DNA from: Trypanosoma brucei
Taxonomy: Eukaryota
Reading direction: 5' to 3'
Length of the DNA: 64,000 nt
Assembly (NCBI GenBank): GCA_000002445.1
Contig: CM000207.1
Location: forward strand, 1,600,001-1,664,000
The notes under the pieces are model-generated. The model made no database searches. It was given only the letters and a program-made list of their open reading frames with translations, and was not told the origin of the DNA. Below are positions 19,755-38,059 of the stretch, piece after piece. A program made the position numbers and the translations under genes. The first letter of the stretch is position 1, and each line of letters starts with the position of its first letter.

Positions 19755-22022
19755 TCATTTCAGCAAAGGGTAGTTTGTGTAACTGACACCATCCTTCAGG
19801 ATTCTAGAAATTGTTAAAGCAATATACGACATCCAAAAAATCACAAAGAACAAAATCTCACCACGCATCCAATACCGTGGCACAAACAGCATCGAGAAAC
19901 TCACAAGGGTCGCTAGCACTGCAGCTGCCATACCACCAAGTACCATTCTGTTGAGCCCTGAAAAGTTACGGGAAAATGGACTCTCAAATTGAGTGTGGAA
20001 AAGAGCAGGATCATGCTGACACGTGAGTAGAGAAACGGCATCCTGTTTCTGTCCATCAAAGAAATTTTGTTGCCACCAGCGGCGCAGTGCGATTCGCACC
20101 ACATCAAACGTGGCCGGTCCCCATTCCCCAGTTAGTAGAAAGTCCACAAAATGGGGGTCGCTTCCAGCGTACAACCTGGAAAGTGAAATTCCCAGTTCAA
20201 CCCACATATGCTTACATCTCTCTACGCTGCAATGAAACTCACCATTCCCTCGCGCTCCGTCACTTCCATCATCCTCATCTTCATACTCATCCTCATCGTC
20301 ACTGAGGTTCATTTCTTCCCCATGCCCAAGTACATACCTAATCATCTGAGGAAGAATGTTAATAGCAATCATGGACTGAACAAGGTTTGTCCGATCCAAG
20401 CAATCCAAACAGTTCACCCGAACGTAATGTTTCTGCTGGTGGACAAGAACCAACTCGCAAGTCGCCCCGTCAGCATCAGCGGTGCTGGGAACAGATGGAG
20501 GCGATGACCCACTCGATGGAGACGGATGTCCTTCATTGCTAAACTTCCAAAAATCTACGAACTGCGATCCACCTTCGTTTTTCCTATTTAGCAGAGTATC
20601 AACTTCCATTCGCATTAAGTTGTAAGGCGCATTTTTAGCCCTCCGTTCCTTTACGTTGTATTTTGTATAATAAACGTCAACGGGCCTTGAGAGAGCGCCA
20701 TTCCCTTCACGAAGTTTTAATGCCGCTGCTTCGAACGCCTTTGAAATTGGCAACTCGGCTTTGCTAAGCGACGTGGTGTCAAGACAATGGATAGATGTCA
20801 TCCCATCGAATAAAGCCAAAAGGGCATTTAAATGCAAGACCAGTTCATCAACCCCTGACGATGGCGAAGATATGGTAATCGTGGGGATGAATGTTAAATT
20901 CGCTGGCTGACTCCAGCAACGAGGCACAGAACCACGAAGAATGGTAAAGGCTGCCACGCGCTGCTTTTCATTAGCGGCCTTATCCCCCTCGTTTCCCGAC
21001 GCTAAAGGAAAGACCCAAAGCGTTGATGCAGAAAAGTTCGCTGCAATCCCACTACCAGCATTGTCAAGCCCACGCCGATTGTATCGCGTACCCGCCCACC
21101 GGTAACTAAGGCGATTGATGAGCAACATCTGAACACCCTCCTCGGGGGAAGTAGTCGCCTCCACAATACCCCTAATAAACGCAGGAACGTACACGTGGTA
21201 ATCACAATTCAGCGAAGCTACAACCTCATCAAACGCACCAAGCAGAGGCGAATTCCACTGGAAAACCACCCGCTGCGATATTTGTCCCTCGGAAGAAATC
21301 GCTAAAGAAAAGGCGCCACCACCCTTCACGCTGCTGCCATTCAACGACGGCGTGAGTACCTCCTTCATACCCTTCACAACATCACCAGGTTCCAGGGTTA
21401 AGTTCGCAGTCGGTGAATAGTAAAAATAAGAAGCACCGCAATGTTGCTCCGACTGCGCACAAAAGCTATCGACAACCCTACAATACTCTAAAACCATTTC
21501 TTCCCTGGCATGGCTTTGTGAAGAACCCTGCGAAGCGCTTGCTTCATCTTTCTCGCCTGAACCACCATCACCACCGTCCCCACTCTTATTCACGGACAGG
21601 TCAGACGCTGTTTCCGGTAGTCGAAGCCACGACAGCTGCTTTACCGCAAACACGTCGTGGGTCTCCCCAATAGTTAATGTGGTAATACGTTCCCGTTCAG
21701 AAACATACAAAAGTATCGACGCAGAGCCAATGCGAAGAACACCAAATAAAGCATAACAGGGAATACAACGGACCGGTGTAAACTCTTCAAATCCAGAGGA
21801 GGAAGCATCGGACATAACTCCATCATCAACCACATCACAAACCGCCTTTTCAGAATCTTTGCTAACATGAGAAACGGCATCATCCGCAGCCACATTACTC
21901 GGCAACACGAAACATTGACGCTCCAAATTCCAAATAAGTCTGGGATAAGAATCATCATTAGGGACAAAAGAGGCAGATTCACCATCAATAACGATATTTC
22001 CAAAAAAATCCCCTACAGACAT
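19755..22022 (-). CDS. SAC1: Sac1-type phosphoinositide phosphatase (SAC domain) with C-terminal transmembrane anchor
   Basis: Catalytic CX5R(T/S) motif in VRVNCLDCLDRTNLVQS. Upstream block RLSYRWAGTRYNRRGLDNAGSGIAANF is characteristic of the SAC domain. Two hydrophobic helices lie at the C-terminus (MVLGGMAAAVLATLVSFSMLFV, ILFFVIFWMSYIALTI). Confidence 0.8.
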   Translation of the reverse strand: MSVGDFFGNIVIDGESASFVPNDDSYPRLIWNLERQCFVLPSNVAADDAVSHVSKDSEKAVCDVVDDGVMSDASSSGFEEFTPVRCIPCYALFGVLRIGSASILLYVSERERITTLTIGETHDVFAVKQLSWLRLPETASDLSVNKSGDGGDGGSGEKDEASASQGSSQSHAREEMVLEYCRVVDSFCAQSEQHCGASYFYYSPTANLTLEPGDVVKGMKEVLTPSLNGSSVKGGGAFSLAISSEGQISQRVVFQWNSPLLGAFDEVVASLNCDYHVYVPAFIRGIVEATTSPEEGVQMLLINRLSYRWAGTRYNRRGLDNAGSGIAANFSASTLWVFPLASGNEGDKAANEKQRVAAFTILRGSVPRCWSQPANLTFIPTITISSPSSGVDELVLHLNALLALFDGMTSIHCLDTTSLSKAELPISKAFEAAALKLREGNGALSRPVDVYYTKYNVKERRAKNAPYNLMRMEVDTLLNRKNEGGSQFVDFWKFSNEGHPSPSSGSSPPSVPSTADADGATCELVLVHQQKHYVRVNCLDCLDRTNLVQSMIAINILPQMIRYVLGHGEEMNLSDDEDEYEDEDDGSDGARGNGEFHCSVERCKHMWVELGISLSRLYAGSDPHFVDFLLTGEWGPATFDVVRIALRRWWQQNFFDGQKQDAVSLLTCQHDPALFHTQFESPFSRNFSGLNRMVLGGMAAAVLATLVSFSMLFVPRYWMRGEILFFVIFWMSYIALTISRILKDGVSYTNYPLLK

Positions 22023-22320: not shown

Positions 22321-24584
22321 AACACCCAAACACTTACTCAGAAGTCAAACAGACAAAATTAACTGATGTCAGCATCAAATAAATTCAGCTGAAACACGGA
22401 TTTGACAGACTCATCATTGACACAAAACAAGGTAAGAGCAACACCACCAAACAGTTCAGAGCAGGAATAAGAAGGAGGGCGGCATGTACATATGTGTGTG
22501 GGGTAATGTTGGTGTAATGGGGAAAAGGTGAGAAAGTTACCGTACGCCTCGGACGCAGGACGCACGCGGCTGGAATGTTGTGCGGCGCCCCAGAAACTAT
22601 CGTAACACTCGTGCTCAATCCATGTTCGGGTGTGTGTCATAAGACCGTCGTAAGTGGTTTATCGTCATGGGCAAAGTACAAGGTGTATCCGCAGTGACCA
22701 AAGAGACAATGCAGAATCTGGCAAAGAGAAAGGGCGAAAGCCAAGCAATAAGGGTGGTTTCAAATGTAAAACAAGGAAAAAGGGAGGGGAGGGGGGTGAC
22801 AGTAACCACACACATGGTATGATAACGTGCCACGACGAAACCAAACACCATCAGCCGGGGAAAGAAGAATATTCTTTAAATGGGTTATTGTCATTCAAAT
22901 ACACTCAGAGACTCCAGTCCATTGATGTCATCAAGTAGCGCGTTTACGACAGGTTAGGTGTACCGCAAAGCAACTCTCGGAGCGCACCAAGATGGCCTAC
23001 GGCATGCAATCACAAAACGGCCGCTCCATGGCTAAAGCCCCTTTTTCATTTTTGTTGTCCATAAAAACACTGAAGGGAGAAAACAGAGGAAGGAGAAGGT
23101 AACAATATCAAACAAGAGAAGAGTGTGCACTAACCAATAACCTCCGTTATAATTCTCGGACCACGTGAGTGTGCAAACAAGGACACAGAAATGTTAGCCC
23201 AAGACACAACTCCAATGTGGGCCTTCCCCTACGGTTACTGCCCCAACACATAATTGTAATTATAATAATAACCATAATCATAATTATACACCTGACGTCA
23301 AGTGAAAAAAACTCGGCGCGTCAGAAACAATATTAGCGTCACGGGTTCTGTTCAGATGTTGCTGTTAATTTGTTATATTAGGTATTCATCACACGCACCT
23401 ACTCGCCGAACTGCTAACCCCACACGTCAGCTCGGAGCGAAAGATAGAGTTCACAGTTGCATCGACATAGTGTGTTTCCGTTCCGCCTACGCGGTATCGG
23501 AAGCTCTTTCATCAGTGGCGGGGAACGACGGATGGGGGATAAACACTTAACAGAGGGGAAAATGTGCATGAAATAGGTAATACAATAAGAGAAGGGGGAA
23601 GTAAACAGGGAATCACGGAAGTAAGGTTCAGTGCAGGTCTGTGTTATGGTGTCCTCACAGGTTCTCGGTGCAATTTGAACATATTGTACATCGTCACCTA
23701 CTACATTCCCTCTCGACTACCCCGCCACTCACAACATTATACTGCCGCCCACATTAGCCATTCCAAACTCACTGCGGTAATGTATCCTCGTGTGTGCTTG
23801 CGTGTATATGTGTATATATGTGTATGTGTATGGAGTCGCGCCCAAGTGCCCGAGGTTGAGTACCTGAAGGACACGATAGCCATCAGACCCGAAAGGTGAT
23901 TTGTGTTGTATAGATCCCTCATGAATATGACGTCGGAACATGTTTGGACGCTCAACTAGTTTCCATCATCGGCCACACACATACACAAACATACAAGCAC
24001 ACACACACACACACACACTCACATATATATATATATATATACATACACGACAAACCTCCGCACACCCAAACACTTACTCAGAAGTCAAACAGACAAAATT
24101 AACTGATGTCAGCATCAAATAAATTCAGCTGAAACACGGATTTGACAGACTCATCATTGACACAAAACAAGGTAAGAGCAACACCACCAAACAGTTCAGA
24201 GCAGGAATAAGAAGGAGGGCGGCATGTACATATGTGTGTGGGGTAATGTTGGTGTAATGGGGAAAAGGTGAGAAAGTTACCGTACGCCTCGGACGCAGGA
24301 CGCACGCGGCTGGAATGTTGTGCGGCGCCCCAGAAACTATCGTAACACTCGTGCTCAATCCATGTTCGGGTGTGTGTCATAAGACCGTCGTAAGTGGTTT
24401 ATCGTCATGGGCAAAGTACAAGGTGTATCCGCAGTGACCAAAGAGACAATGCAGAATCTGGCAAAGAGAAAGGGCGAAAGCCAAGCAATAAGGGTGGTTT
24501 CAAATGTAAAACAAGGAAAAAGGGAGGGGAGGGGGGTGACAGTAACCACACACATGGTATGATAACGTGCCACGACGAAACCAA

Positions 24585-24680
24585 ACACCATCAGCCGGGG
24601 AAAGAAGAATATTCTTTAAATGGGTTATTGTCATTCAAATACACTCAGAGACTCCAGTCCATTGATGTCATCAAGTAGCG
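24585..24680 (-). ncRNA. Weaker box C/D snoRNA-like element 'B' (representative, unit 2). Same position in all 8 copies, at unit offset ~522-617.
   Basis: Minus-strand reading: UUGAUGA-(19 nt)-CUGA-(10 nt)-AUGA-(35 nt)-CUGA. C, D', degenerate C' and D in canonical order, ~82 nt C-to-D. No clear terminal stem. Confidence 0.3.
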
Positions 24681-25054
24681 CGTTTACGACAGGTTAGGTG
24701 TACCGCAAAGCAACTCTCGGAGCGCACCAAGATGGCCTACGGCATGCAATCACAAAACGGCCGCTCCATGGCTAAAGCCCCTTTTTCATTTTTGTTGTCC
24801 ATAAAAACACTGAAGGGAGAAAACAGAGGAAGGAGAAGGTAACAATATCAAACAAGAGAAGAGTGTGCACTAACCAATAACCTCCGTTATAATTCTCGGA
24901 CCACGTGAGTGTGCAAACAAGGACACAGAAATGTTAGCCCAAGACACAACTCCAATGTGGGCCTTCCCCTACGGTTACTGCCCCAACACATAATTGTAAT
25001 TATAATAATAACCATAATCATAATTATACACCTGACGTCAAGTGAAAAAAACTC

Positions 25055-25139
25055 GGCGCGTCAGAAACAATATTAGCGTCACGGGTTCTGTTCAGATGTT
25101 GCTGTTAATTTGTTATATTAGGTATTCATCACACGCACC
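25055..25139 (-). ncRNA. Box C/D snoRNA-like element 'D', representative copy in unit 2. The same element is present in units 1-7 at 23315-23399, 25055-25139, 26807-26891, 28553-28637, 30293-30377, 32033-32117, 33771-33855.
   Basis: Minus-strand reading: 5'-GGUGCG-U-GUGAUGA-(30 nt)-CUGA-(27 nt)-CUGA-CGCGCC-3'. Canonical C box (RUGAUGA), D' and D boxes (CUGA). The 6-bp terminal stem GGUGCG/CGCGCC (one G.U) flanks the C and D boxes directly. Size ~85 nt. Not verified against rRNA targets. Confidence 0.5.
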
Positions 25140-25157
25140 TACTCGCCGAACTGCTAA

Positions 25158-25263
25158 CCCCACACGTCAGCTCGGAGCGAAAGATAGAGTTCACAGTTGC
25201 ATCGACATAGTGTGTTTCCGTTCCGCCTACGCGGTATCGGAAGCTCTTTCATCAGTGGCGGGG
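25158..25263 (-). ncRNA. Box C/D snoRNA-like element 'C', representative copy in unit 2. The same element is present in units 1-7 at 23418-23523, 25158-25263, 26910-27015, 28656-28761, 30396-30501, 32136-32241, 33874-33979.
   Basis: Minus-strand reading: 5'-CCCCGC-CAC-UGAUGA-(~85 nt)-CUGA-CGU-GUGGGG-3'. C box UGAUGA and D box CUGA are bracketed by a 6-bp terminal stem CCCCGC/GUGGGG (one G.U). Lies immediately upstream (in the minus sense) of element D. Confidence 0.45.
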
Positions 25264-28200
25264 AACGACGGATGGGGGATAAACACTTAACAGAGGGGAA
25301 AATGTGCATGGAATAGGTAATACAATAAGAGAAGGGGGAAGTAAACAGGGAATCACGGAAGTAAGGTTCAGTGCAGGTCTGTGTTATGGTGTCCTCACAG
25401 GTTCTCGGTGCAATTTGAACATATTGTACATCGTCACCCACTACATTCCCTCTCGACTACCCCGCCACTCACAACATTATACTGCCGCCCACATTAGCCA
25501 TTCCAAACTCACTGCGGTAATGTATCCTCGTGTGTGCTTGCGTGTATATGTGTATATATGTGTATATATGTGTATGTGTATGGAGTCGCGCCCAAGTGCC
25601 CGAGGTTGAGTACCTGAAGGACACGATAGCCATCAGACCCGAAAGGTGATTTGTGTTGTATAGATCCCTCATGAATATGACGTCGGAACATGTTTGGACG
25701 CTCAACTAGTTTCCATCATCGGCCACACACATACACAAACATACAAGCACACACACATACACACACTCACATATATATATATATATATATATACATACAC
25801 GACAAACCTCCGCACACCCAAACACTTACTCAGAAGTCAAACAGACAAAATTAACTGATGTCAGCATCAAATAAATTCAGCTGAAACACGGATTTGACAG
25901 ACTCATCATTGACACAAAACAAGGTAAGAGCAACACCACCAAACAGTTCAGAGCAGGAATAAGAAGGAGGGCGGCATGTACATATGTGTGTGGGGTAATC
26001 TTGGTGTAATGGGGAAAAGGTGAGAAAGTTACCGTACGCCTCGGACGCAGGACGCACGCGGCTGGAATGTTGTGCGGCGCCCCAGAAACTATCGTAACAC
26101 TCGTGCTCAATCCATGTTCGGGTGTGTGTCATAAGACCGTCGTAAGTGGTTTATCGTCATGGGCAAAGTACAAGGTGTATCCGCAGTGACCAAAGAGACA
26201 ATGCAGAATCTGGCAAAGAGAAAGGGCGAAAGCCAAGCAATAAGGGTGGTTTCAAATGTAAAACAAGGAAAAAGGGAGGGGAGGGGGGTGACAGTAACCA
26301 CACACATGGTATGATAACGTGCCACGACGAAACCAAACACCATCAGCCGGGGAAAGAAGAATATTCTTTAAATGGGTTATTGTCATTCAAATACACTCAG
26401 AGACTCCAGTCCATTGATGTCATCAAGTAGCGCGTTTACGACAGGTTAGGTGTACCGCAAAGCAACTCTCGGAGCGCACCAAGATGGCCTACGGCATGCA
26501 ATCACAAAACGGCCGCTCCATGGCTAAAGCCCCTTTTTCATTTTTGTTGTCCATAAAAACACTGAAGGGAGAAAACAGAGGAAGGAGAAGGTAACAATAT
26601 CAAACAAGAGAAGAGTGTGCACTAACCAATAACCTCCGTTATAATTCTCGGACCACGTGAGTGTGCAAACAAGGACACAGAAATGTTAGCCCAAGACACA
26701 ACTCCAATGTGGGCCTTCCCCTACGGTTACTGCCCCAACACATAATTGTAATTATAATAATAACCATAATCATAATTATACACCTGACGTCAAGTGAAAA
26801 AAACTCGGCGCGTCAGAAACAATATTAGCGTCACGGGTTCTGTTCAGATGTTGCTGTTAATTTGTTATATTAGGTATTCATCACACGCACCTACTCGCCG
26901 AACTGCTAACCCCACACGTCAGCTCGGAGCGAAAGATAGAGTTCACAGTTGCATCGACATAGTGTGTTTCCGTTCCGCCTACGCGGTATCGGAAGCTCTT
27001 TCATCAGTGGCGGGGAACGACGGATGGGGGATAAACACTTAACAGAGGGGAAAATGTGCATGGAATAGGTAATACAATAAGAAAAGGGGGAAGTAAACAG
27101 GGAATCACGGAAGTAAGGTTCAGTGCAGGTCTGTGTTATGGTGTCCTCACAGGTTCTCGGTGCAATTTGAACATATTGTACATCGTCACCCACTACATTC
27201 CCTCTCGACTACCCCGCCACTCACAACATTATACTGCCGCCCACATTAGCCATTCCAAACTCACTGCGGTAATGTATCCTCGTGTGTGCTTGCGTGTATA
27301 TGTGTATATATGTGTATGTGTATGGAGTCGCGCCCAAGTGCCCGAGGTTGAGTACCTGAAGGACACGATAGCCATCAGACCCGAAAGGTGATTTGTGTTG
27401 TATAGATCCCTCATGAATATGACGTCGGAACATGTTTGGACGCTCAACTAGTTTCCATCATCGGCCACACACATACACAAACATACAAGCACACACACAC
27501 ACACACACACTCACATATATATATATATATATACATATATATACACGACAAACCTCCGCACACCCAAACACTTACTCAGAAGTCAAACAGACAAAATTAA
27601 CTGATGTCAGCATCAAATAAATTCAGCTGAAACACGGATTTGACAGACTCATCATTGACACAAAACAAGGTAAGAGCAACACCACCAAACAGTTCAGAGC
27701 AGGAATAAGAAGGAGGGCGGCATGTACATATGTGTGTGGGGTAATCTTGGTGTAATGGGGAAAAGGTGAGAAAGTTACCGTACGCCTCGGACGCAGGACG
27801 CACGCGGCTGGAATGTTGTGCGGCGCCCCAGAAACTATCGTAACACTCGTGCTCAATCCATGTTCGGGTGTGTGTCATAAGACCGTCGTAAGTGGTTTAT
27901 CGTCATGGGCAAAGTACAAGGTGTATCCGCAGTGACCAAAGAGACAATGCAGAATCTGGCAAAGAGAAAGGGCGAAAGCCAAGCAATAAGGGTGGTTTCA
28001 AATGTAAAACAAGGAAAAAGGGAGGGGAGGGGGGTGACAGTAACCACACACATGGTATGATAACGTGCCACGACGAAACCAAACACCATCAGCCGGGGAA
28101 AGAAGAATATTCTTTAAATGGGTTATTGTCATTCAAATACACTCAGAGACTCCAGTCCATTGATGTCATCAAGTAGCGCGTTTACGACAGGTTAGGTGTA

Positions 28201-31200
28201 CCGCAAAGCAACTCTCGGAGCGCACCAAGATGGCCTACGGCATGCAATCACAAAACGGCCGCTCCATGGCTAAAGCCCCTTTTTCATTTTTGTTGTCCAT
28301 AAAAACACTGAAGGGAGAAAACAGAGGAAGGAGAAGGTAACAATATCAAACAAGAGAAGAGTGTGCACTAACCAATAACCTCCGTTATAATTCTCGGACC
28401 ACGTGAGTGTGCAAACAAGGACACAGAAATGTTAGCCCAAGACACAACTCCGATGTGGGCCTTCCCCTACGGTTACTGCCCCAACACATAATTGTAATTA
28501 TAATAATAACCATAATCATAATTATACACCTGACGTCAAGTGAAAAAAACTCGGCGCGTCAGAAACAATATTAGCGTCACGGGTTCTGTTCAGATGTTGC
28601 TGTTAATTTGTTATATTAGGTATTCATCACACGCACCTACTCGCCGAACTGCTAACCCCACACGTCAGCTCGGAGCGAAAGATAGAGTTCACAGTTGCAT
28701 CGACATAGTGTGTTTCCGTTCCGCCTACGCGGTATCGGAAGCTCTTTCATCAGTGGCGGGGAACGACGGATGGGGGATAAACACTTAACAGAGGGGAAAA
28801 TGTGCATGGAATAGGTAATACAATAAGAGAAGGGGGAAGTAAACAGGGAATCACGGAAGTAAGGTTCAGTGCAGGTCTGTGTTATGGTGTCCTCACAGGT
28901 TCTCGGTGCAATTTGAACATATTGTACATCGTCACCCACTACATTCCCTCTCGACTACCCCGCCACTCACAACATTATACTGCCGCCCACATTAGCCATT
29001 CCAAACTCACTGCGGTAATGTATCCTCGTGTGTGCTTGCGTGTATATGTGTATATATGTGTATGTGTATGGAGTCGCGCCCAAGTGCCCGAGGTTGAGTA
29101 CCTGAAGGACACGATAGCCATCAGACCCGAAAGGTGATTTGTGTTGTATAGATCCCTCATGAATATGACGTCGGAACATGTTTGGACGCTCAACTAGTTT
29201 CCATCATCGGCCACACACATACACAAACATACAAGCACACACACACACACACACACTCACATATATATATATATATATACATACACGACAAACCTCCGCA
29301 CACCCAAACACTTACTCAGAAGTCAAACAGACAAAATTAACTGATGTCAGCATCAAATAAATTCAGCTGAAACACGGATTTGACAGACTCATCATTGACA
29401 CAAAACAAGGTAAGAGCAACACCACCAAACAGTTCAGAGCAGGAATAAGAAGGAGGGCGGCATGTACATATGTGTGTGGGGTAATCTTGGTGTAATGGGG
29501 AAAAGGTGAGAAAGTTACCGTACGCCTCGGACGCAGGACGCACGCGGCTGGAATGTTGTGCGGCGCCCCAGAAACTATCGTAACACTCGTGCTCAATCCA
29601 TGTTCGGGTGTGTGTCATAAGACCGTCGTAAGTGGTTTATCGTCATGGGCAAAGTACAAGGTGTATCCGCAGTGACCAAAGAGACAATGCAGAATCTGGC
29701 AAAGAGAAAGGGCGAAAGCCAAGCAATAAGGGTGGTTTCAAATGTAAAACAAGGAAAAAGGGAGGGGAGGGGGGTGACAGTAACCACACACATGGTATGA
29801 TAACGTGCCACGACGAAACCAAACACCATCAGCCGGGGAAAGAAGAATATTCTTTAAATGGGTTATTGTCATTCAAATACACTCAGAGACTCCAGTCCAT
29901 TGATGTCATCAAGTAGCGCGTTTACGACAGGTTAGGTGTACCGCAAAGCAACTCTCGGAGCGCACCAAGATGGCCTACGGCATGCAATCACAAAACGGCC
30001 GCTCCATGGCTAAAGCCCCTTTTTCATTTTTGTTGTCCATAAAAACACTGAAGGGAGAAAACAGAGGAAGGAGAAGGTAACAATATCAAACAAGAGAAGA
30101 GTGTGCACTAACCAATAACCTCCGTTATAATTCTCGGACCACGTGAGTGTGCAAACAAGGACACAGAAATGTTAGCCCAAGACACAACTCCAATGTGGGC
30201 CTTCCCCTACGGTTACTGCCCCAACACATAATTGTAATTATAATAATAACCATAATCATAATTATACACCTGACGTCAAGTGAAAAAAACTCGGCGCGTC
30301 AGAAACAATATTAGCGTCACGGGTTCTGTTCAGATGTTGCTGTTAATTTGTTATATTAGGTATTCATCACACGCACCTACTCGCCGAACTGCTAACCCCA
30401 CACGTCAGCTCGGAGCGAAAGATAGAGTTCACAGTTGCATCGACATAGTGTGTTTCCGTTCCGCCTACGCGGTATCGGAAGCTCTTTCATCAGTGGCGGG
30501 GAACGATGGATGGGGGATAAACACTTAACAGAGGGGAAAATGTGCATGGAATAGGTAATACAATAAGAGAAGGGGGAAGTAAACAGGGAATCACGGAAGT
30601 AAGGTTCAGTGCAGGTCTGTGTTATGGTGTCCTCACAGGTTCTCGGTGCAATTTGAACATATTGTACATCGTCACCCACTACATTCCCTCTCGACTACCC
30701 CGCCACTCACAACATTATACTGCCGCCCACATTAGCCATTCCAAACTCACTGCGGTAATGTATCCTCGTGTGTGCTTGCGTGTATATGTGTATATATGTG
30801 TATGTGTATGGAGTCGCGCCCAAGTGCCCGAGGTTGAGTACCTGAAGGACACGATAGCCATCAGACCCGAAAGGTGATTTGTGTTGTATAGATCCCTCAT
30901 GAATATGACGTCGGAACATGTTTGGACGCTCAACTAGTTTCCATCATCGGCCACACACATACACAAACATACAAGCACACACACACACACACACTCACAT
31001 ATATATATATATATATATACATACACGACAAACCTCCGCACACCCAAACACTTACTCAGAAGTCAAACAGACAAAATTAACTGATGTCAGCATCAAATAA
31101 ATTCAGCTGAAACACGGATTTGACAGACTCATCATTGACACAAAACAAGGTAAGAGCAACACCACCAAACAGTTCAGAGCAGGAATAAGAAGGAGGGCGG

Positions 31201-34200
31201 CATGTACATATGTGTGTGGGGTAATGTTGGTGTAATGGGGAAAAGGTGAGAAAGTTACCGTACGCCTCGGACGCAGGACGCACGCGGCTGGAATGTTGTG
31301 CGGCGCCCCAGAAACTATCGTAACACTCGTGCTCAATCCATGTTCGGGTGTGTGTCATAAGACCGTCGTAAGTGGTTTATCGTCATGGGCAAAGTACAAG
31401 GTGTATCCGCAGTGACCAAAGAGACAATGCAGAATCTGGCAAAGAGAAAGGGCGAAAGCCAAGCAATAAGGGTGGTTTCAAATGTAAAACAAGGAAAAAG
31501 GGAGGGGAGGGGGGTGACAGTAACCACACACATGGTATGATAACGTGCCACGACGAAACCAAACACCATCAGCCGGGGAAAGAAGAATATTCTTTAAATG
31601 GGTTATTGTCATTCAAATACACTCAGAGACTCCAGTCCATTGATGTCATCAAGTAGCGCGTTTACGACAGGTTAGGTGTACCGCAAAGCAACTCTCGGAG
31701 CGCACCAAGATGGCCTACGGCATGCAATCACAAAACGGCCGCTCCATGGCTAAAGCCCCTTTTTCATTTTTGTTGTCCATAAAAACACTGAAGGGAGAAA
31801 ACAGAGGAAGGAGAAGGTAACAATATCAAACAAGAGAAGAGTGTGCACAAACCAATAACCTCCGTTATAATTCTCGGACCACGTGAGTGTGCAAACAAGG
31901 ACACAGAAATGTTAGCCCAAGACACAACTCCAATGTGGGCCTTCCCCTACGGTTACTGCCCCAACACATAATTGTAATTATAATAATAACCATAATCATA
32001 ATTATACACCTGACGTCAAGTGAAAAAAACTCGGCGCGTCAGAAACAATATTAGCGTCACGGGTTCTGTTCAGATGTTGCTGTTAATTTGTTATATTAGG
32101 TATTCATCACACGCACCTACTCGCCGAACTGCTAACCCCACACGTCAGCTCGGAGCGAAAGATAGAGTTCACAGTTGCATCGACATAGTGTGTTTCCGTT
32201 CCGCCTACGCGGTATCGGAAGCTCTTTCATCAGTGGCGGGGAACGACGGATGGGGGATAAACACTTAACAGAGGGGAAAATGTGCATGGAATAGGTAATA
32301 CAATAAGAGAAGGGGGAAGTAAACAGGGAATCACGGAAGTAAGGTTCAGTGCAGGTCTGTGTTATGGTGTCCTCACAGGTTCTCGGTGCAATTTGAACAT
32401 ATTGTACATCGTCACCCACTACATTCCCTCTCGACTACCCCGCCACTCACAACATTATACTGCCGCCCACATTAGCCATTCCAAACTCACTGCGGTAATG
32501 TATCCTCGTGTGTGCTTGCGTGTATATGTGTATATATGTGTATGTGTATGGAGTCGCGCCCAAGTGCCCGAGGTTGAGTACCTGAAGGACACGATAGCCA
32601 TCAGACCCGAAAGGTGATTTGTGTTGTATAGATCCCTCATGAATATGACGTCGGAACATGTTTGGACGCTCAACTAGTTTCCATCATCGGCCACACACAT
32701 ACACAAACATACAAGCACACACACATACACACACTCACATATATATATATATATATACATACACGACAAACCTCCGCACACCCAAACACTTACTCAGAAG
32801 TCAAACAGACAAAATTAACTGATGTCAGCATCAAATAAATTCAGCTGAAACACGGATTTGACAGACTCATCATTGACACAAAACAAGGTAAGAGCAACAC
32901 CACCAAACAGTTCAGAGCAGGAATAAGAAGGAGGGCGGCATGTACATATGTGTGTGGGGTAATGTTGGTGTAATGGGGAAAAGGTGAGAAAGTTACCGTA
33001 CGCCTCGGACGCAGGACGCACGCGGCTGGAATGTTGTGCGGCGCCCCAGAAACTATCGTAACACTCGTGCTCAATCCATGTTCGGGTGTGTGTCATAAGA
33101 CCGTCGTAAGTGGTTTATCGTCATGGGCAAAGTACAAGGTGTATCCGCAGTGACCAAAGAGACAATGCAGAATCTGGCAAAGAGAAAGGGCGAAAGCCAA
33201 GCAATAAGGGTGGTTTCAAATGTAAAACAAGGAAAAAGGGAGGGGAGGGGGGTGACAGTAACCACACACATGGTATGATAACGTGCCACGACGAAACCAA
33301 ACACCATCAGCCGGGGAAAGAAGAATATTCTTTAAATGGGTTATTGTCATTCAAATACACTCAGAGACTCCAGTCCATTGATGTCATCAAGTAGCGCGTT
33401 TACGACAGGTTAGGTGTACCGCAAAGCAACTCTCGGAGCGCACCAAGATGGCCTACGGCATGCAATCACAAAACGGCCGCTCCATGGCTAAAGCCCCTTT
33501 TTCATTTTTGTTGTCCATAAAAACACTGAAGGGAGAAAACAGAGGAAGGAGAAGGTAACAATATCAAACAAGAGAAGAGTGTGCACTAACCAATAACCTC
33601 CGTTATAATTCTCGGACCACGTGAGTGTGCAAACAAGGACACAGAAATGTTAGCCCAAGACACAACTCCAATGTGGGCCTTCCCCTACGGTTACTGCCCC
33701 AACACATAATTGTAATTATAATAATAACCATAATCATAATTATACACCTGACGTCAAGTGAAAAAAACTCGGCGCGTCAGAAACAATATTAGCGTCACGG
33801 GTTCTGTTCAGATGTTGCTGTTAATTTGTTATATTAGGTATTCATCACACGCACCTACTCGCCGAACTGCTAACCCCACACGTCAGCTCGGAGCGAAAGA
33901 TAGAGTTCACAGTTGCATCGACATAGTGTGTTTCCGTTCCGCCTACGCGGTATCGGAAGCTCTTTCATCAGTGGCGGGGAACGACGGATGGGGGATAAAC
34001 ACTTAACAGAGGGGAAAATGTGCATGAAATAGGTAATACAATAAGAGAAGGGGGAAGTAAACAGGGAATCACGGAAGTAAGGTTCAGTGCAGGTCTGTGT
34101 TATGGTGTCCTCACAGGTTCTCGGTGCAATTTGAACATATTGTACATCGTCACCCACTACATTCCCTCTCGACTACCCCGCCACTCACAACATTATACTG

Positions 34201-35985
34201 CCGCCCACATTAGCCATTCCAAACTCACTGCGGTAATGTATCCTCGTGTGTGCTTGCGTGTATATGTGTATATATGTGTATGTGTATGGAGTCGCGCCCA
34301 AGTGCCCGAGGTTGAGTACCTGAAGGACACGATAGCCATCAGACCCGAAAGGTGATTTGTGTTGTATAGATCCCTCATGAATATGACGTCGGAACATGTT
34401 TGGACGCTCAACTAGTTTCCATCATCGGCCACACACATACACAAACATACAAGCACACACACACACACACACACTCACATATATATATATATATATACAT
34501 ACACGACAAACCTCCGCACACCCAAACACTTACTCAGAAGTCAAACAGACAAAATTAACTGATGTCAGCATCAAATAAATTCAGCTGAAACACGGATTTG
34601 ACAGACTCATCATTGACACAAAACAAGGTAAGAGCAACACCACCAAACAGTTCAGAGCAGGAATAAGAAGGAGGGCGGCATGTACATATGTGTGTGGGGT
34701 AATGTTGGTGTAATGGGGAAAAGGTGAGAAAGTTACCGTACGCCTCGGACGCAGGACGCACGCGGCTGGAATGTTGTGCGGCGCCCCAGAAACTATCGTA
34801 ACACTCGTGCTCAATCCATGTTCGGGTGTGTGTCATAAGACCGTCGTAAGTGGTTTATCGTCATGGGCAAAGTACAAGGTGTATCCGCAGTGACCAAAGA
34901 GACAATGCAGAATCTGGCAAAGAGAAAGGGCGAAAGCCAAGCAATAAGGGTGGTTTCAAATGTAAAACAAGGAAAAAGGGAGGGGGGGTGACAGCAACCA
35001 CACACATGGTATGATAACGTGCCACGACGAAACCAAACACCATCAGCCGGGGAAAGAAGAATATTCTTTAAATGGGTTATTGTCATTCAAATACACTCAG
35101 AGACTCCAGTCCATTGATGTCATCAAGTAGCGCGTTTACGACAGGTTAGGTGTACCGCAAAGCAACTCTCGGAGCGCACCAAGATGGCCTACGGCATGCA
35201 ATCACAAAACGGCCGCTCCATGGCTAAAGCCCCTTTTTCATTTTTGTTGTCCATAAAAACACTGAAGGGAGAAAACAGAGGAAGGAGAAGGTAACAATAT
35301 CAAACAAGAGAAGAGTGTGCACTAACCAATAACCTCCGTTATAATTCTCGGACCACGTGAGTGTGCAAACAAGGACACAGAAATGTTAGCCCAAGACACA
35401 ACTCCAATGTGTCGCATTTTTTTTCGTAATATAGTTTTTGAAAGTTTATTCAAATTTTTTGGAAGAAGGCTGAGTTGTTGCAGGTTCTTTACCTATGATA
35501 GGTCATATTGCTGATTATATTTTTTGTTCAATTGTTTTTTGTGTATAGAATGATTTCTCCTTTTTTATTTTTTTTCACCAAGTGGCTTGATAATTTTGGT
35601 GGAACCAACTGTTTTTTTTTTTTTCGCATGATATATTGTTAATAAGTTGAAACTCAAAAGTAAATGAGTAGGGTAACCATTATTTTGTGATAACTGCACG
35701 TAGCTTCGCTATAGTTGAAGCATCGATGTGCCCTTTTTCATTACTTTTTTTTTTACGTTTCTTGCATTGTTTAGCAATTGAGTATCGATTTTGTGTCCGC
35801 TTCCGATATTACTTTGGCAGGGTCAGTGATGTGGTTTAACAAAAAGGAAAAAATCAGCTGAATGGTGTTGTTTACTTGTTTGATGCCATTACCACTTGTT
35901 TTTTATTTTCGCTGTTGCATCATATCGCAGCTGTTCTCGCTGCCGTTTGATTATCACTCTCTTGATGTAGTTGGTAGTAACGTTT

Positions 35986-36381
35986 TCACATCCTGTAATC
36001 TCTTCTGTTTTCGTTTGATGCGTTGTTGTTTGTGTCGTAACTGTTTGAATAGTATGCGTCTGTCCCATATTCCCTGTTTTGGTTGCTGGAAAAGTCATAA
36101 GTTGGGTATTGCGATGTTTGCTGATTGTTTGATGGGTTATTATTTGCCGCTTCCTCCTTTTTGTGTTCGTTGGACGTGTTTCCATTGTCATTAGATTCTG
36201 TTCTGCCTTTAGCGCTTTGGGCCACCCCCGCAGCTTGCCGACGGGCGACAGACCTCTTATGAATCAAACAACCGACTATCCACAGAGCGGTCAGACCGAT
36301 ATAAACGGCGATTGTGATGAGGTATTTATACCACTCCCCCCCTTCCTTCTTCTCCTCTGGTTGTTGTTGTTGTTGTTCCAT
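35986..36381 (-). CDS. Small single-pass membrane protein with Q-rich N-terminus and N-rich C-terminal tail (131 aa), hypothetical
   Basis: ORF in the transcription-unit sense. TM helix WYKYLITIAVYIGLTALWIVGCLI followed by a basic stop-transfer (HKRSVARRQ). Low-complexity N/Q-rich tail, so coding status is not certain. Confidence 0.45.
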   Translation of the reverse strand: MEQQQQQPEEKKEGGEWYKYLITIAVYIGLTALWIVGCLIHKRSVARRQAAGVAQSAKGRTESNDNGNTSNEHKKEEAANNNPSNNQQTSQYPTYDFSSNQNREYGTDAYYSNSYDTNNNASNENRRDYRM

Positions 36382-37041
36382 GGCAACGCTAAGTCACTAG
36401 TGGGTTTTTTTTTGAAAAAGATTTCTATCGTTGGTCCTCGATAGGTTCGCCCTCCCCCCTACGTATTTCTCAACACTATTGTTGTTGTTGTTGTTACCTA
36501 CACTCTAAACACCTGCCAAATAAATGAACACGAGTAACCTCAGATTCAATGTGGTTTATCCTTCGCTTACGATAAAAAAAAATTGATGGAAACACTATGT
36601 AAAAGACACGGTTGAGAGCAAGTGAGAAGTACAGCGGAATCGGGTGGAAAATGATGCAACAACAACAGCAGCTTTACTTACGCGCCAAAACTCTGGTCCA
36701 AAAATAGACAATATATATATATATATATATATATGACTGAGTGACACTGTCTAACCTCCAATGAAGAGAAAAAGAGGGCACAAACCCAACAGCGGCGAGC
36801 ACGCGCAATGGAGCAAATGCAGCATAACTGCGCTCAGACACGAGAACAACCAAACACGGTATCGCACGTGGAGAAAATTCAGATGCCTAAACGAGCGAAT
36901 TGTTACCGAAGGCGATAAAAAAGCGAGGAGGAGGAGAGAAAAAAAAAACGGGAGAAGGCACAAAAACACGAGACATTGATCGTGCAATGAGAATCAACAC
37001 TCCGCACCTTCCTCCAATAAAAGTCTTTTGCCGCGTCGCAA

Positions 37042-37569
37042 TCAGTCCTGCTTCTTGTCGGGATTAATAGCTTCGGCTTCACTAGCAAGAGGCGCTTCCC
37101 TTAAAGAGTAAACAACGTATACCGTCATTATCACTATAGTAGAAAATACCGCCATCAAACCGCCGCAGGTTCCCGGATCAACATCCGCAAAGGGAGCAAC
37201 AATATGCATGCCGATGAGGAGGATTAAAATAGGAACAGTTAGCATGAGCACCGAAAACAAGAGAAAGACAGACGCAACCCGTTGGTTATGCGGCATTCTC
37301 ATATTTTGTGCAAATAGACGGAAACCCGCTGCCTTATCCTTCAATGGACGAAATGCAGCCCTATTAAGTTCCTCACGTGCCTCCTTGGACATGCGCAGAG
37401 TCTCCTTTGTTGACGGCTCATCGCCACTTTCGGCGTTATCACCGTTTAATAGAGAACTGTAGAGCTCTTTTCTAATATACTCACGTTCCCGATGCTCCTC
37501 TTCCTGAAGAGTCCGTAACGTGTCAGCACCTCCCTGAGGCTGCGGCCTCTCATCGTCAGCTCCGCTCAT
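37042..37569 (-). CDS. Hypothetical membrane protein (175 aa). Acidic N-terminal region, two C-terminal TM helices.
   Basis: ORF in the transcription-unit sense. Hydrophobic segments VASVFLLFSVLMLTVPILILLIGMHIV and LMAVFSTIVIMTVYVVY. Confidence 0.5.
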   Translation of the reverse strand: MSGADDERPQPQGGADTLRTLQEEEHREREYIRKELYSSLLNGDNAESGDEPSTKETLRMSKEAREELNRAAFRPLKDKAAGFRLFAQNMRMPHNQRVASVFLLFSVLMLTVPILILLIGMHIVAPFADVDPGTCGGLMAVFSTIVIMTVYVVYSLREAPLASEAEAINPDKKQD

Positions 37570-38059
37570 TTCCCCTCTGACATTATTATTATTATTATTT
37601 CAAAATTTAGGAAAAAAATGTGACGGAAAAGAAGGAAAAAGTGGGGAGATGTAAATTGTAACAGAAGCAGTGGTTGCTAATGATTAAAAAACTTGAGAAC
37701 TAGAGGGGAAGTTTGATACCACAATCTCATAATAACACAAAGAGGTGGGGGAAATAACAAAATAATAACGAAATTAATACTCTACATCCGCTCGAGCTAG
37801 AGCTCCATACCCTTTCTTTCCTTCCAGGGGCATGAAACAAAAATCACCACATGATTGGCTGACACGGTAAACGCAACAAGGATTTAGCAAGCAAGTGCGG
37901 AGAGGAGGATATGCACAATATGATAATAGTTTCAACCAACGGAATCACTTTCTTTTTTTTTTCCGAAGCAACAACACACTACCCCACGAAACGGCACTAC
38001 AAACTGCAGCTTTTCTTTTTCGTCGAGCAGGTGGTAAACGTTCGATCAGTTGTCCACCT

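What the first reader, a model, noticed from the sequence alone, without database searches (positions are those of the whole stretch)
22322..35411. 13.1 kb tandem array of a 1.74 kb non-coding unit embedded in a protein-coding polycistron
There are eight unit starts (7 full copies + 0.5 copy) at >99% identity. The largest ORF per unit is 111 aa, and equally long ORFs occur on both strands, so the unit is almost certainly not protein coding. This is by far the dominant non-genic structure in the window. It sits between the Sac1-like gene and a small membrane-protein gene, in the same transcription unit. In trypanosomatids, tandemly reiterated non-coding units inside polycistronic transcription units are the typical organisation of snoRNA clusters and SL/5S arrays. 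No SL exon or 5S sequence is present, which leaves a small-RNA cluster as the best explanation. If the copy number is real rather than an assembly artefact, it implies very high expression demand or recent amplification.
Basis: partly seen in the sequence, partly recalled or inferred. Interest (0 to 1): 0.85.

Follow-up and report, generated by a model that had tools for sequence, protein, structure and literature searches.

The report
Known Trypanosoma brucei snoRNA gene array

Summary
Window 22322-35411 holds 7 full copies plus 898/1740 nt of a 1738-1752 nt unit, and the copies are more than 99% identical. The interpretation (a snoRNA cluster on the minus strand, inside a polycistron) is supported. 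Rfam finds the trypanosomatid H/ACA snoRNA TB9Cs2H1 once per unit. Nine published T. brucei oligos for TB9Cs2C3 and TB9Cs2C5 match exactly, 7 times each, with the minus strand as sense. The flanking proteins are exact matches to T. b. brucei TREU927 chromosome 9. Comparison with the syntenic T. cruzi array shows exactly nine conserved blocks per unit in the same order (H1-H2-C7-C1-C2-C3-C4-C5-C6), and the spacers are not conserved. For all seven C/D RNAs, the window carries an element antisense to the published modified rRNA oligonucleotide, and the modified base pairs exactly 5 nt upstream of a D or D' box. The array holds 68 snoRNA gene copies; the first H1 copy is 5'-truncated. Copy number differs between assemblies (7.5, 4.5 and 3.5 units) although the junctions are identical. 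The members are characterised experimentally in the literature (rRNA 2'-O-methylation, pseudouridylation, LSU processing). Verdict: already known, low interest.

The parts
22322..35411 (-). Tandem array of the TB9Cs2 snoRNA cluster: 7 full units plus a 898-nt partial unit. The partial unit is the first to be transcribed.
   Evidence: Unit starts 22322, 24062, 25814, 27560, 29300, 31040, 32778, 34518. Holds 68 snoRNA gene copies.
30132..30201 (-). TB9Cs2H1, a single-hairpin H/ACA-like snoRNA with a 3' AGA box (reference unit).
   Evidence: Rfam RF01554, 86.8 bits against a gathering score of 45. Copies at 23154-23223, 24894-24963, 26646-26715, 28392-28461 (1 substitution), 30132-30201, 31872-31941 and 33610-33679. 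Conserved in T. cruzi and in L003. The literature assigns it Psi518 (H69) and Psi680 of LSU-beta.
35346..35415 (-). 5'-truncated first copy of H1 at the upstream array junction.
   Evidence: Rfam score drops to 70.5 bits. Repeat homology starts at 35411. The GGCCC strand of the basal stem is replaced by unrelated sequence, and the canonical fold is lost. The same truncated copy opens the array in L006 and L007.
29950..30019 (-). TB9Cs2H2, a single-hairpin H/ACA-like snoRNA ending in AGA.
   Evidence: Conserved block between T. brucei and T. cruzi. Hairpin with compensatory changes in the basal stem. The pocket strands CUUG and GCC can pair with CAAG-[Psi1248 G]-GGC of LSU-alpha as listed in PMC10662448 suppl. 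file 13. 8 identical copies: 22972-23041, 24712-24781, 26464-26533, 28210-28279, 29950-30019, 31690-31759, 33428-33497, 35164-35233.
29824..29916 (-). TB9Cs2C7, a box C/D snoRNA (C box UGAUGA; D' and D boxes CUGA).
   Evidence: Antisense elements to AC(Um685)CCAG and GG(Gm659)GAAAGAAGA of LSU-beta, each with the modified nt 5 nt upstream of CUGA. 8 identical copies: 22846-22938, 24586-24678, 26338-26430, 28084-28176, 29824-29916, 31564-31656, 33302-33394, 35038-35130.
29526..29650 (-). TB9Cs2C1, a box C/D snoRNA (C box AUGACGA, D' box AUGA) plus a conserved 3' hairpin. The exact 3' end is not resolved here.
   Evidence: Antisense element CGACGGUCU to AGA(Cm1413)CGUCG of LSU-beta at +5 from AUGA. 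124-nt block 82-84% conserved in T. cruzi and in L004. 3' hairpin with one covarying pair. 8 identical copies: 22548-22672, 24288-24412, 26040-26164, 27786-27910, 29526-29650, 31266-31390, 33004-33128, 34744-34868. The literature reports a role in LSU/srRNA-2 processing.
29311..29399 (-). TB9Cs2C2, a box C/D snoRNA with two guide elements.
   Evidence: Antisense elements to G(m1A)(Am743)ACACG and U(Cm760)AAACAG of LSU-alpha, both at +5 from CUGA. 8 identical copies: 22333-22421, 24073-24161, 25825-25913, 27571-27659, 29311-29399, 31051-31139, 32789-32877, 34529-34617.
30856..30954 (-). TB9Cs2C3, a box C/D snoRNA (C box UGAUGG, D' box CCGA, D box CUGA).
   Evidence: The published sense primer GTGGCCGATGATGGAAACTA matches its 5' end exactly. 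Antisense element to ACCC(Gm925)AAAGGU of LSU-alpha at +5 from CUGA. The D' guide reads onto U914/G915, 10-11 nt upstream. 7 identical copies: 23878-23976, 25628-25726, 27370-27468, 29116-29214, 30856-30954, 32596-32694, 34334-34432.
30602..30679 (-). TB9Cs2C4, a box C/D snoRNA (C box UGACGA, D box CUGA).
   Evidence: The guide ...ACAGACCUGCA|CUGA places CA(Gm1895)GU of SSU at +5. Weak Rfam similarity to snR56. Conserved in T. cruzi. 7 copies: 23624-23701 (1 substitution), 25364-25441, 27116-27193, 28862-28939, 30602-30679, 32342-32419, 34080-34157.
30401..30497 (-). TB9Cs2C5, a box C/D snoRNA, 96-97 nt.
   Evidence: The published northern primers and the biotinylated '76-96 nt' oligo match exactly at both ends. 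Antisense element UCGCUCCGA to UCG(Gm1028)AGCGA of LSU-alpha at +5 from CUGA. 7 identical copies: 23423-23519, 25163-25259, 26915-27011, 28661-28757, 30401-30497, 32141-32237, 33879-33975. The literature reports a role in srRNA1 / 3'ETS processing.
30293..30377 (-). TB9Cs2C6, a box C/D snoRNA (C box UGAUGA; D' and D boxes CUGA).
   Evidence: The D' guide ...AACAGCAACAU|CUGA places U(Um714)GC of SSU at +5 (the published context is short). 6-bp terminal stem. Conserved in T. cruzi and in L003. Weak Rfam C/D similarity. 7 identical copies: 23315-23399, 25055-25139, 26807-26891, 28553-28637, 30293-30377, 32033-32117, 33771-33855.
19755..22022 (-). Downstream flanking gene in the same polycistron: Sac1-homology (synaptojanin N-terminal) phosphoinositide phosphatase.
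   Evidence: Pfam Syja_N, 1.2e-35. Exact match to XP_827348.1 of T. b. brucei TREU927. Its orthologue also lies downstream of the array in T. cruzi.
35986..39889 (-). Upstream flanking genes in the same polycistron: a 131-aa ORF (35986-36381), a VMA21-like gene (37042-37569) and BBS1 (38060-39889).
   Evidence: Pfam. BBS1 is an exact match to XP_827351.1 of TREU927. Same gene order in DAL972.

Best explanation
The array is the TB9Cs2 snoRNA gene cluster of Trypanosoma brucei brucei TREU927 chromosome 9. Each 1.74 kb unit encodes nine small nucleolar RNAs on the minus strand, in the transcription order H1-H2-C7-C1-C2-C3-C4-C5-C6, separated by microsatellite-rich spacers. From established trypanosomatid biology (inferred here, not tested), the array is transcribed by RNA polymerase II as part of the surrounding polycistron, and the precursor is cut and trimmed into individual snoRNAs. 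The seven box C/D RNAs assemble with fibrillarin/NOP1-type snoRNPs and pair with rRNA. The nucleotide opposite the 5th position upstream of the D or D' box is then 2'-O-methylated: LSU-beta C1413, G659 and U685; LSU-alpha A743, C760, G925 (and U914/G915) and G1028; SSU G1895 and U714. The two single-hairpin, AGA-box H/ACA-like RNAs direct pseudouridylation: H2 at LSU-alpha Psi1248, and H1 at LSU-beta Psi518 in helix 69 and Psi680. According to published RNAi and cross-linking work, C1, C3 and C5 are also needed for trypanosome-specific cleavages of the fragmented LSU rRNA. Tandem reiteration multiplies gene dosage, and the near-identity of the copies reflects concerted evolution by unequal crossing-over. 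That also explains why unit number varies between strains while the junctions stay fixed.
For: Shown here:
- Rfam RF01554 TB9Cs2H1 hits once per unit on the minus strand, at 84-87 bits against a gathering score of 45.
- Nine published T. brucei TB9Cs2C3/C5 oligos (PMC6411936 Table S1) match exactly, 7 times each, with the minus strand as sense.
- The flanking proteins are exact matches to TREU927 proteins on a 3.06 Mb record.
- A box scan finds 5 C/D candidates on the minus strand and 0 on the plus strand, against 0.15 expected from shuffles.
- T. brucei and T. cruzi share exactly nine conserved blocks in the same order, and the spacers are not conserved.
- Elements antisense to the published mass-spectrometry rRNA oligos occur once per unit, only on the minus strand. 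In each, the modified nucleotide sits exactly at +5 from CUGA (AUGA for C1 D').
- H2 is a hairpin plus AGA with compensatory basal-stem changes.
- The unit ORFs have no family match.

From the literature:
- C1-C7, H1 and H2 are all named, with these targets.
- Functional data exist for C1, for C3 and C5, and for H1, where knock-out attempts failed.
- Pol II polycistronic transcription and processing of snoRNA clusters is described in the PMC3273796 introduction.
Against: Nothing found here contradicts it.

Limits:
- Expression and RNA ends were not measured here; they rest on the cited papers.
- The original cluster description (Liang et al. 2005, RNA 11:619) and the published repeat number (Fig. 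4 of PMC3273796) could not be read.
- The published contexts for C4 and C6 are only 4-5 nt long, so those two guide matches are weak on their own.
- The H1 pocket pairs imperfectly with the Psi518 site by my reading (4 + 3-4 bp).
- The 3' end and D box of C1 are not resolved.
Confidence: 0.97

Rival explanations
1. The repeat is a non-functional satellite, a transposable element, or a decayed protein-gene array, and the snoRNA-like hit is incidental.
For: Spacers contain (CA)n/(TA)n microsatellites. ORFs of up to 111 aa exist on both strands.
Against: No Pfam match for any unit ORF. Nine blocks, about 46% of the unit, are conserved with T. cruzi while the spacers are not. Strand-specific C/D architecture. 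Guide elements fit published modification sites at +5. Published probes detect these RNAs.
Confidence: 0.01
2. The cluster is real, but the 7.5-copy number is an assembly artefact, by over-expansion here or collapse elsewhere, rather than the true state of the strain.
For: Other T. brucei-group assemblies carry 3.5 units (DAL972, L006) and 4.5 units (GCA_003543875.1, L007) between the same junctions. Short-read contigs break at the array.
Against: Copies in the window are individually distinguishable. There are four different unit lengths (1738, 1740, 1746 and 1752 nt) and 8 point differences, some shared by non-adjacent units, which is not what a duplicated consensus looks like. The other assemblies come from different subspecies or strains with a different unit length (~1672 nt), so real polymorphism by unequal crossing-over is at least as likely. 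Tandem reiteration itself is conserved as far as T. cruzi.
Confidence: 0.2
3. The array is transcribed from its own start region just upstream of the first repeat, rather than only by read-through from the upstream protein-coding genes.
For: A 575-nt A-rich, ORF-free stretch (35412-35985) precedes the array. A paper cited in PMC3273796 (Liang et al. 2004, J Biol Chem, on Leptomonas collosoma) discusses a potential role for sequences upstream of the first repeated cluster.
Against: The array is co-oriented with every flanking gene. The literature describes snoRNA clusters as polycistronic Pol II transcripts. No trypanosomatid promoter model could be run here. This rival concerns only the mode of transcription, not what the array is.
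Confidence: 0.15

Closest known systems
T. brucei snoRNA cluster TB9Cs2 (Michaeli-lab nomenclature: chromosome 9, cluster 2; members TB9Cs2C1-C7, H1, H2; Rfam RF01554 for H1)
   Same: Identical. Same chromosome and strain (TREU927). Exact matches to published oligos. Same nine RNAs, with guide elements fitting the published targets.
   Different: Nothing substantive. The published repeat number could not be read for comparison with the 7.5 units seen here.
Syntenic orthologous cluster in T. cruzi (GCA_015033655.1, CM026627.1) and partial copies in two other Trypanosoma assemblies (GCA_003719485.1, GCA_003719475.1)
   Same: Same position upstream of the Sac1 orthologue. Same nine RNAs in the same order. 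Tandemly repeated. Guide elements and boxes identical.
   Different: The unit is 1.54 kb rather than 1.74 kb. Spacers are unrelated. At least 4 copies lie within the 10 kb examined, with an Oxidored_FMN gene between copies.
Other reiterated trypanosomatid snoRNA clusters (e.g. TB9Cs3, TB10Cs1, TB11Cs2 with SLA1/snR30; Leishmania major and Leptomonas collosoma clusters)
   Same: Mixed C/D and single-hairpin AGA-box H/ACA-like genes in tandemly repeated units inside Pol II polycistrons, with the +5 methylation rule (literature).
   Different: Different snoRNA content and different targets.
Yeast and human counterparts: snR56/SNORD25 (for C4), snR39b (for C3), snR60 (for C5)
   Same: Equivalent rRNA target sites. 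C4 has weak Rfam similarity to snR56. The C3 and C5 equivalences are stated in PMC6562600.
   Different: In yeast these are independently transcribed or intronic genes, not members of a 9-gene tandem array. The trypanosome RNAs also act in trypanosome-specific LSU fragment processing.

Membership tests
TB9Cs2 cluster of T. brucei | Contains TB9Cs2H1 (Rfam RF01554) above the gathering score | tested here: met
   8 hits at 70.5-86.8 bits against a gathering score of 45, all on the minus strand, one per unit.
TB9Cs2 cluster of T. brucei | Sequence identity to published TB9Cs2C3 and TB9Cs2C5 probes and primers | tested here: met
   9 of 9 oligos from PMC6411936 Table S1 match exactly, 7 times each.
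TB9Cs2 cluster of T. brucei | Located on chromosome 9 of T. brucei | tested here: met
   The flanking proteins equal XP_827348.1 and XP_827351.1 of TREU927, on a 3,057,547-bp record. That this record is chromosome 9 is my own knowledge of its size, and it agrees with the 'TB9' name.
TB9Cs2 cluster of T. brucei | Composition: seven C/D RNAs (C1-C7) and two H/ACA-like RNAs (H1, H2) with the published rRNA targets | tested here: met
   Nine footprinted blocks. Guides match the published modified oligos at +5 for C1, C2 (2 sites), C3, C5 and C7 (2 sites), and with short contexts for C4 and C6. The H2 pocket fits Psi1248.
Box C/D snoRNA | C box (RUGAUGA-like) near the 5' end, D box (CUGA) near the 3' end, and a short terminal stem | tested here: met
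   Five of seven pass an automatic scan, with 0 on the opposite strand and 0.15 expected from shuffles. C2 has canonical boxes but a weak stem. C1 has AUGACGA and an unresolved D box.
Box C/D snoRNA | An antisense element of at least 9-10 nt ending next to D or D', with the methylated nucleotide paired to the 5th position upstream | tested here: met
   against rRNA contexts from PMC10662448 supplements.
Box C/D snoRNA | Stable RNA bound by fibrillarin/NOP56/NOP58 and located in the nucleolus | not testable with these tools
   Literature only: RNA-seq of small RNPs, northern blots and gradients.
Trypanosomatid single-hairpin H/ACA-like snoRNA | One hairpin of about 70 nt with an internal pseudouridylation pocket and an AGA box 3 nt from the 3' end | tested here: met
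   H1: Rfam structure alignment. H2: consensus hairpin with 3 pairs changed on both sides, followed by AGA. Thermodynamic z-scores alone are not significant.
Trypanosomatid single-hairpin H/ACA-like snoRNA | Pocket strands complementary to rRNA on both sides of the target U, about 14-15 nt upstream of AGA | tested here: inconclusive
   H2: CUUG and GCC pair with CAAG and GGC around Psi1248 (context), with 14-nt spacing. H1: good fit to Psi680 (8 + 4 bp, partly using rRNA sequence I recalled from memory) and a weaker fit to Psi518.
SL RNA / 5S rRNA tandem arrays | The unit contains an SL RNA or 5S rRNA gene | tested here: not met
   No such Rfam hit at gathering score across the whole window, or at E<=10 in one unit.
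Protein-coding gene array or transposable element | A conserved ORF or recognisable protein domain in the unit | tested here: not met
   Longest ORF is 111 aa. No Pfam hit better than E=0.098.

The most novel reading that the evidence does not exclude
Two small open points remain. First, the ~45-nt conserved, structured 3' extension of the C1 block (about 29570-29526) might be a distinct functional module, or a separate small RNA that is not part of the C/D guide proper, perhaps tied to C1's role in LSU processing. Second, the two-fold difference in unit number between T. brucei-group genomes (7.5, 4.5 and 3.5 units) might be real dosage polymorphism affecting snoRNA abundance and levels of rRNA modification.
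Probability: 0.2. Interest if true: 0.25.

Novelty: already known. Interest (0 to 1): 0.08.

Why it matters
It matters mainly as a validation. A reader working from raw sequence correctly recognised a snoRNA array, and the tools recover the complete, published nine-gene content, including RNAs absent from Rfam, by combining footprinting with the +5 rule. Biologically the cluster is important: it guides about a dozen rRNA modifications, including one in helix 69, and three members are needed for trypanosome-specific LSU rRNA processing. All of this is already in the literature. The only mildly new outputs are the per-copy map of 68 genes, the conserved truncated H1 at the array edge, the difference in copy number between assemblies, and the note that published RNAi and probe amplicons span neighbouring snoRNAs.

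Tried and rejected
- Tandem Repeats Finder could not see the 1.74 kb period (its maximum period is 500) and reported only spacer microsatellites. I used the repeat finder and BLAST instead.
- The weak Rfam hits to mir-297 and mir-3149 fall on (CA)n/(TA)n spacers, far below gathering score, and were rejected as low-complexity artefacts.
- My first, strict C/D scan missed C5 even though primers anchor it experimentally, so I relaxed the scan. C1 and C2 still escape automatic detection and were assigned from guide matches and conservation.
- Single-sequence folding z-scores for H1, H2 and C1 are not significant, so I did not use thermodynamic stability as evidence.
- The original description (Liang et al. 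2005; PMID 15840815 / PMC1370750) is not held.
- PMC3273796 has no supplements held as text, and its Figure 4 (repeat numbers, snoRNA lengths) is not readable.
- Table S2 of PMC6411936 gave no lengths.
- The exact VMA21-like protein was not on record.
- I did not use the phage, plasmid or E. coli collections, or the bacterial genome collection, because they are irrelevant to a trypanosome locus.
Full report
OBSERVATION.

BLAST of one unit against the window gives seven full-length matches (99.1-100% identity) plus one 898-nt partial match. Together they cover 22322-35411. Unit starts are 22322, 24062, 25814, 27560, 29300, 31040, 32778 and 34518, with periods of 1738-1752 nt. The seven full units differ at only 30 alignment columns. 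These are length changes in (CA)n/(TA)n spacers plus eight point differences. The largest ORF in a unit is 111 aa, similar ORFs lie on both strands, and none has a credible Pfam match. No tRNA, 5S or SL RNA is present. All ORFs of at least 294 aa in the 64 kb window are on the minus strand. The immediate neighbours are a Sac1-homology gene downstream (19755-22022), and a 131-aa ORF, a VMA21-like gene and BBS1 upstream, all on the minus strand.

WHAT IT IS.

Rfam at curated thresholds finds one family only: RF01554 TB9Cs2H1, a trypanosomatid H/ACA snoRNA. It occurs once per unit on the minus strand, at 84-87 bits against a gathering score of 45, with a weaker 70.5-bit copy at the array edge. 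The family name points to the Michaeli-lab cluster "T. brucei chromosome 9, cluster 2".

I tested that identity in four independent ways:

- Published oligos. Nine oligonucleotides published for TB9Cs2C3 and TB9Cs2C5 (RNAi, northern and affinity-selection oligos; PMC6411936 Table S1) all match the window exactly. Each matches seven times, with the minus strand as the RNA-sense strand.
- Flanking proteins. The Sac1-like and BBS1 proteins are exact matches to XP_827348.1 and XP_827351.1 of T. brucei brucei TREU927, on a 3,057,547-bp record.
- Synteny and footprinting. The orthologous Sac1 gene of T. cruzi (chromosome-level assembly GCA_015033655.1) is preceded by a 1.54 kb tandem unit carrying TB9Cs2H1. 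Comparing the two units gives exactly nine conserved blocks in the same order, and the spacers do not align. Per-block alignments, which add two further Trypanosoma contigs, show boxes and guide elements perfectly conserved while termini and internal linkers drift.
- Guide elements. The literature names nine members (C1-C7, H1, H2) with defined rRNA targets. I took the modified rRNA oligonucleotides determined by mass spectrometry in PMC10662448 and searched one unit for their reverse complements. Every context of 7 nt or more occurs once, only on the minus strand, and the nucleotide opposite the modified residue is exactly the fifth upstream of a CUGA box (AUGA for the D' box of C1). The matches are:
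  - C1: Cm1413 of LSU-beta
  - C2: Am743 and Cm760 of LSU-alpha
  - C3: Gm925 of LSU-alpha
  - C5: Gm1028 of LSU-alpha
  - C7: Um685 and Gm659 of LSU-beta
  - C4 (Gm1895 of SSU) and C6 (Um714 of SSU) also fit at +5, but their published contexts are only 4-5 nt long.

An automatic box scan finds five C/D candidates on the minus strand and none on the plus strand, against 0.15 expected from shuffles. H2 (30019-29950) is a single hairpin followed by AGA, with compensatory changes in its basal stem between T. brucei and T. cruzi. Its pocket strands can pair with CAAG and GGC on either side of Psi1248-G of LSU-alpha (context).

ANATOMY.

In transcription order (high to low coordinates), a unit reads H1-H2-C7-C1-C2-C3-C4-C5-C6. 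Reference-unit coordinates are:

| snoRNA | Coordinates (minus strand) |
|---|---|
| H1 | 30201-30132 |
| H2 | 30019-29950 |
| C7 | 29916-29824 |
| C1 | 29650-29526 |
| C2 | 29399-29311 |
| C3 | 30954-30856 |
| C4 | 30679-30602 |
| C5 | 30497-30401 |
| C6 | 30377-30293 |

The array begins inside H1. Repeat homology starts at 35411, so the first H1 copy lacks the GGCCC strand of its basal stem. It ends 11 nt after the last C2 copy (22333-22421), at 22322. The array therefore holds 8 copies each of H1 (one truncated), H2, C7, C1 and C2, and 7 copies each of C3-C6. That is 68 genes, all identical apart from single substitutions in one H1 copy and one C4 copy. About 46% of each unit is snoRNA.

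MECHANISM.

Shown here: the gene content, the strand, the guide complementarity and the conservation.

Taken from the literature:
- Trypanosomatid snoRNA clusters are transcribed polycistronically by Pol II and processed into individual RNAs (PMC3273796).
- C/D members guide 2'-O-methylation by the +5 rule.
- H1 guides Psi518 in helix 69, and attempts to knock it out failed.
- C1, C3 and C5 are additionally required for trypanosome-specific LSU rRNA processing steps.

Inferred: tandem reiteration raises gene dosage, and the near-identity of the copies reflects concerted evolution by unequal crossing-over.

COPY NUMBER.

The same locus in T. b. gambiense DAL972 has 3.5 units, and GCA_003543875.1 has 4.5 units. 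Both share the window's junctions, including the truncated first H1, and have a ~1672-nt unit. A short-read assembly contig stops about 470 nt into the array. The window's copies are individually distinguishable, which argues against simple duplication by an assembler. The exact number in TREU927 still needs long reads or a Southern blot.

COMPARISON AND VERDICT.

This is not merely like a known system. It is the known TB9Cs2 cluster in the reference strain in which it was defined.

Residual open points are minor:
- the true 3' end of C1, whose conserved block extends ~45 nt into a hairpin with one covarying pair;
- whether H1 fits Psi680 better than Psi518;
- whether the differences in unit number between strains are real.

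Noticed in passing
window 35346-35415; L006 3783-3852; L007 2113-2182: The first H1 copy to be transcribed is 5'-truncated. The array junction falls 4-5 nt inside the gene and removes one strand of the basal stem. The same truncated copy opens the array in two other T. brucei-group assemblies, so the junction is old and this copy is probably non-functional.
   Followed up: partly
window 22322-35411 versus L006 3783-9689 and L007 2113-9686: Unit number differs between assemblies: 7.5 in TREU927, 3.5 in T. b. gambiense DAL972 and 4.5 in GCA_003543875.1. Flanks are identical. The unit is ~1672 nt in the other two assemblies, against 1738-1752 nt here. This could be real polymorphism or assembly collapse; the question is not resolved.
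   Followed up: partly
window 29570-29526 (and the equivalent position in every unit): The conserved C1 block is ~125 nt, long for a C/D snoRNA. Its 3' ~45 nt form a GC-rich hairpin conserved in T. cruzi and in another Trypanosoma contig, with one covarying pair. It is unclear whether the D box is the CUGG at ~29570 or the CCGA at ~29531, or whether the hairpin is a separate element.
   Followed up: partly
window 31052-30523, 30762-30283 and 30602-30621: Published primer pairs (PMC6411936 Table S1) span more than the snoRNA they are named for. The 'TB9Cs2C3' RNAi amplicon covers C3 and C4. The 'TB9Cs2C5' RNAi amplicon covers C4, C5 and nearly all of C6. The 'Antisense T7 TB9Cs2C3' northern primer maps to the 3' end of C4. 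This could affect how specific those reagents are.
   Followed up: no
L002 1399-2328 (T. cruzi CM026627.1): In T. cruzi a gene with an Oxidored_FMN (old-yellow-enzyme-type) domain sits between copies of the orthologous snoRNA unit. A 364-aa gene with no Pfam match (7742-8836) separates the array from the Sac1 orthologue. Neither has a counterpart at this position in T. brucei.
   Followed up: no
window 28392-28461 and 23624-23701: The only sequence variants inside snoRNA genes are one substitution in the H1 copy of unit 4 (Rfam score 83.9 against 86.8) and one at the third nucleotide of the C4 copy of unit 1. The other six point differences between units lie in spacers.
   Followed up: no
L001, L003, L004 (contig ends): Contigs from three other Trypanosoma assemblies (L001, L003, L004) end inside or just beside the snoRNA array, so this locus often breaks assemblies.
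   Followed up: no
window 30132-30201 (H1 pocket): By hand pairing, the H1 pocket (5' strand AUUGGAGUU, 3' strand ACUCAC) fits LSU-beta Psi680 (about 8 + 4 bp) better than the helix-69 site Psi518 (about 4 + 3-4 bp with one mismatch). The literature assigns both sites to H1. Part of the rRNA context I used was recalled from memory, not retrieved.
   Followed up: partly
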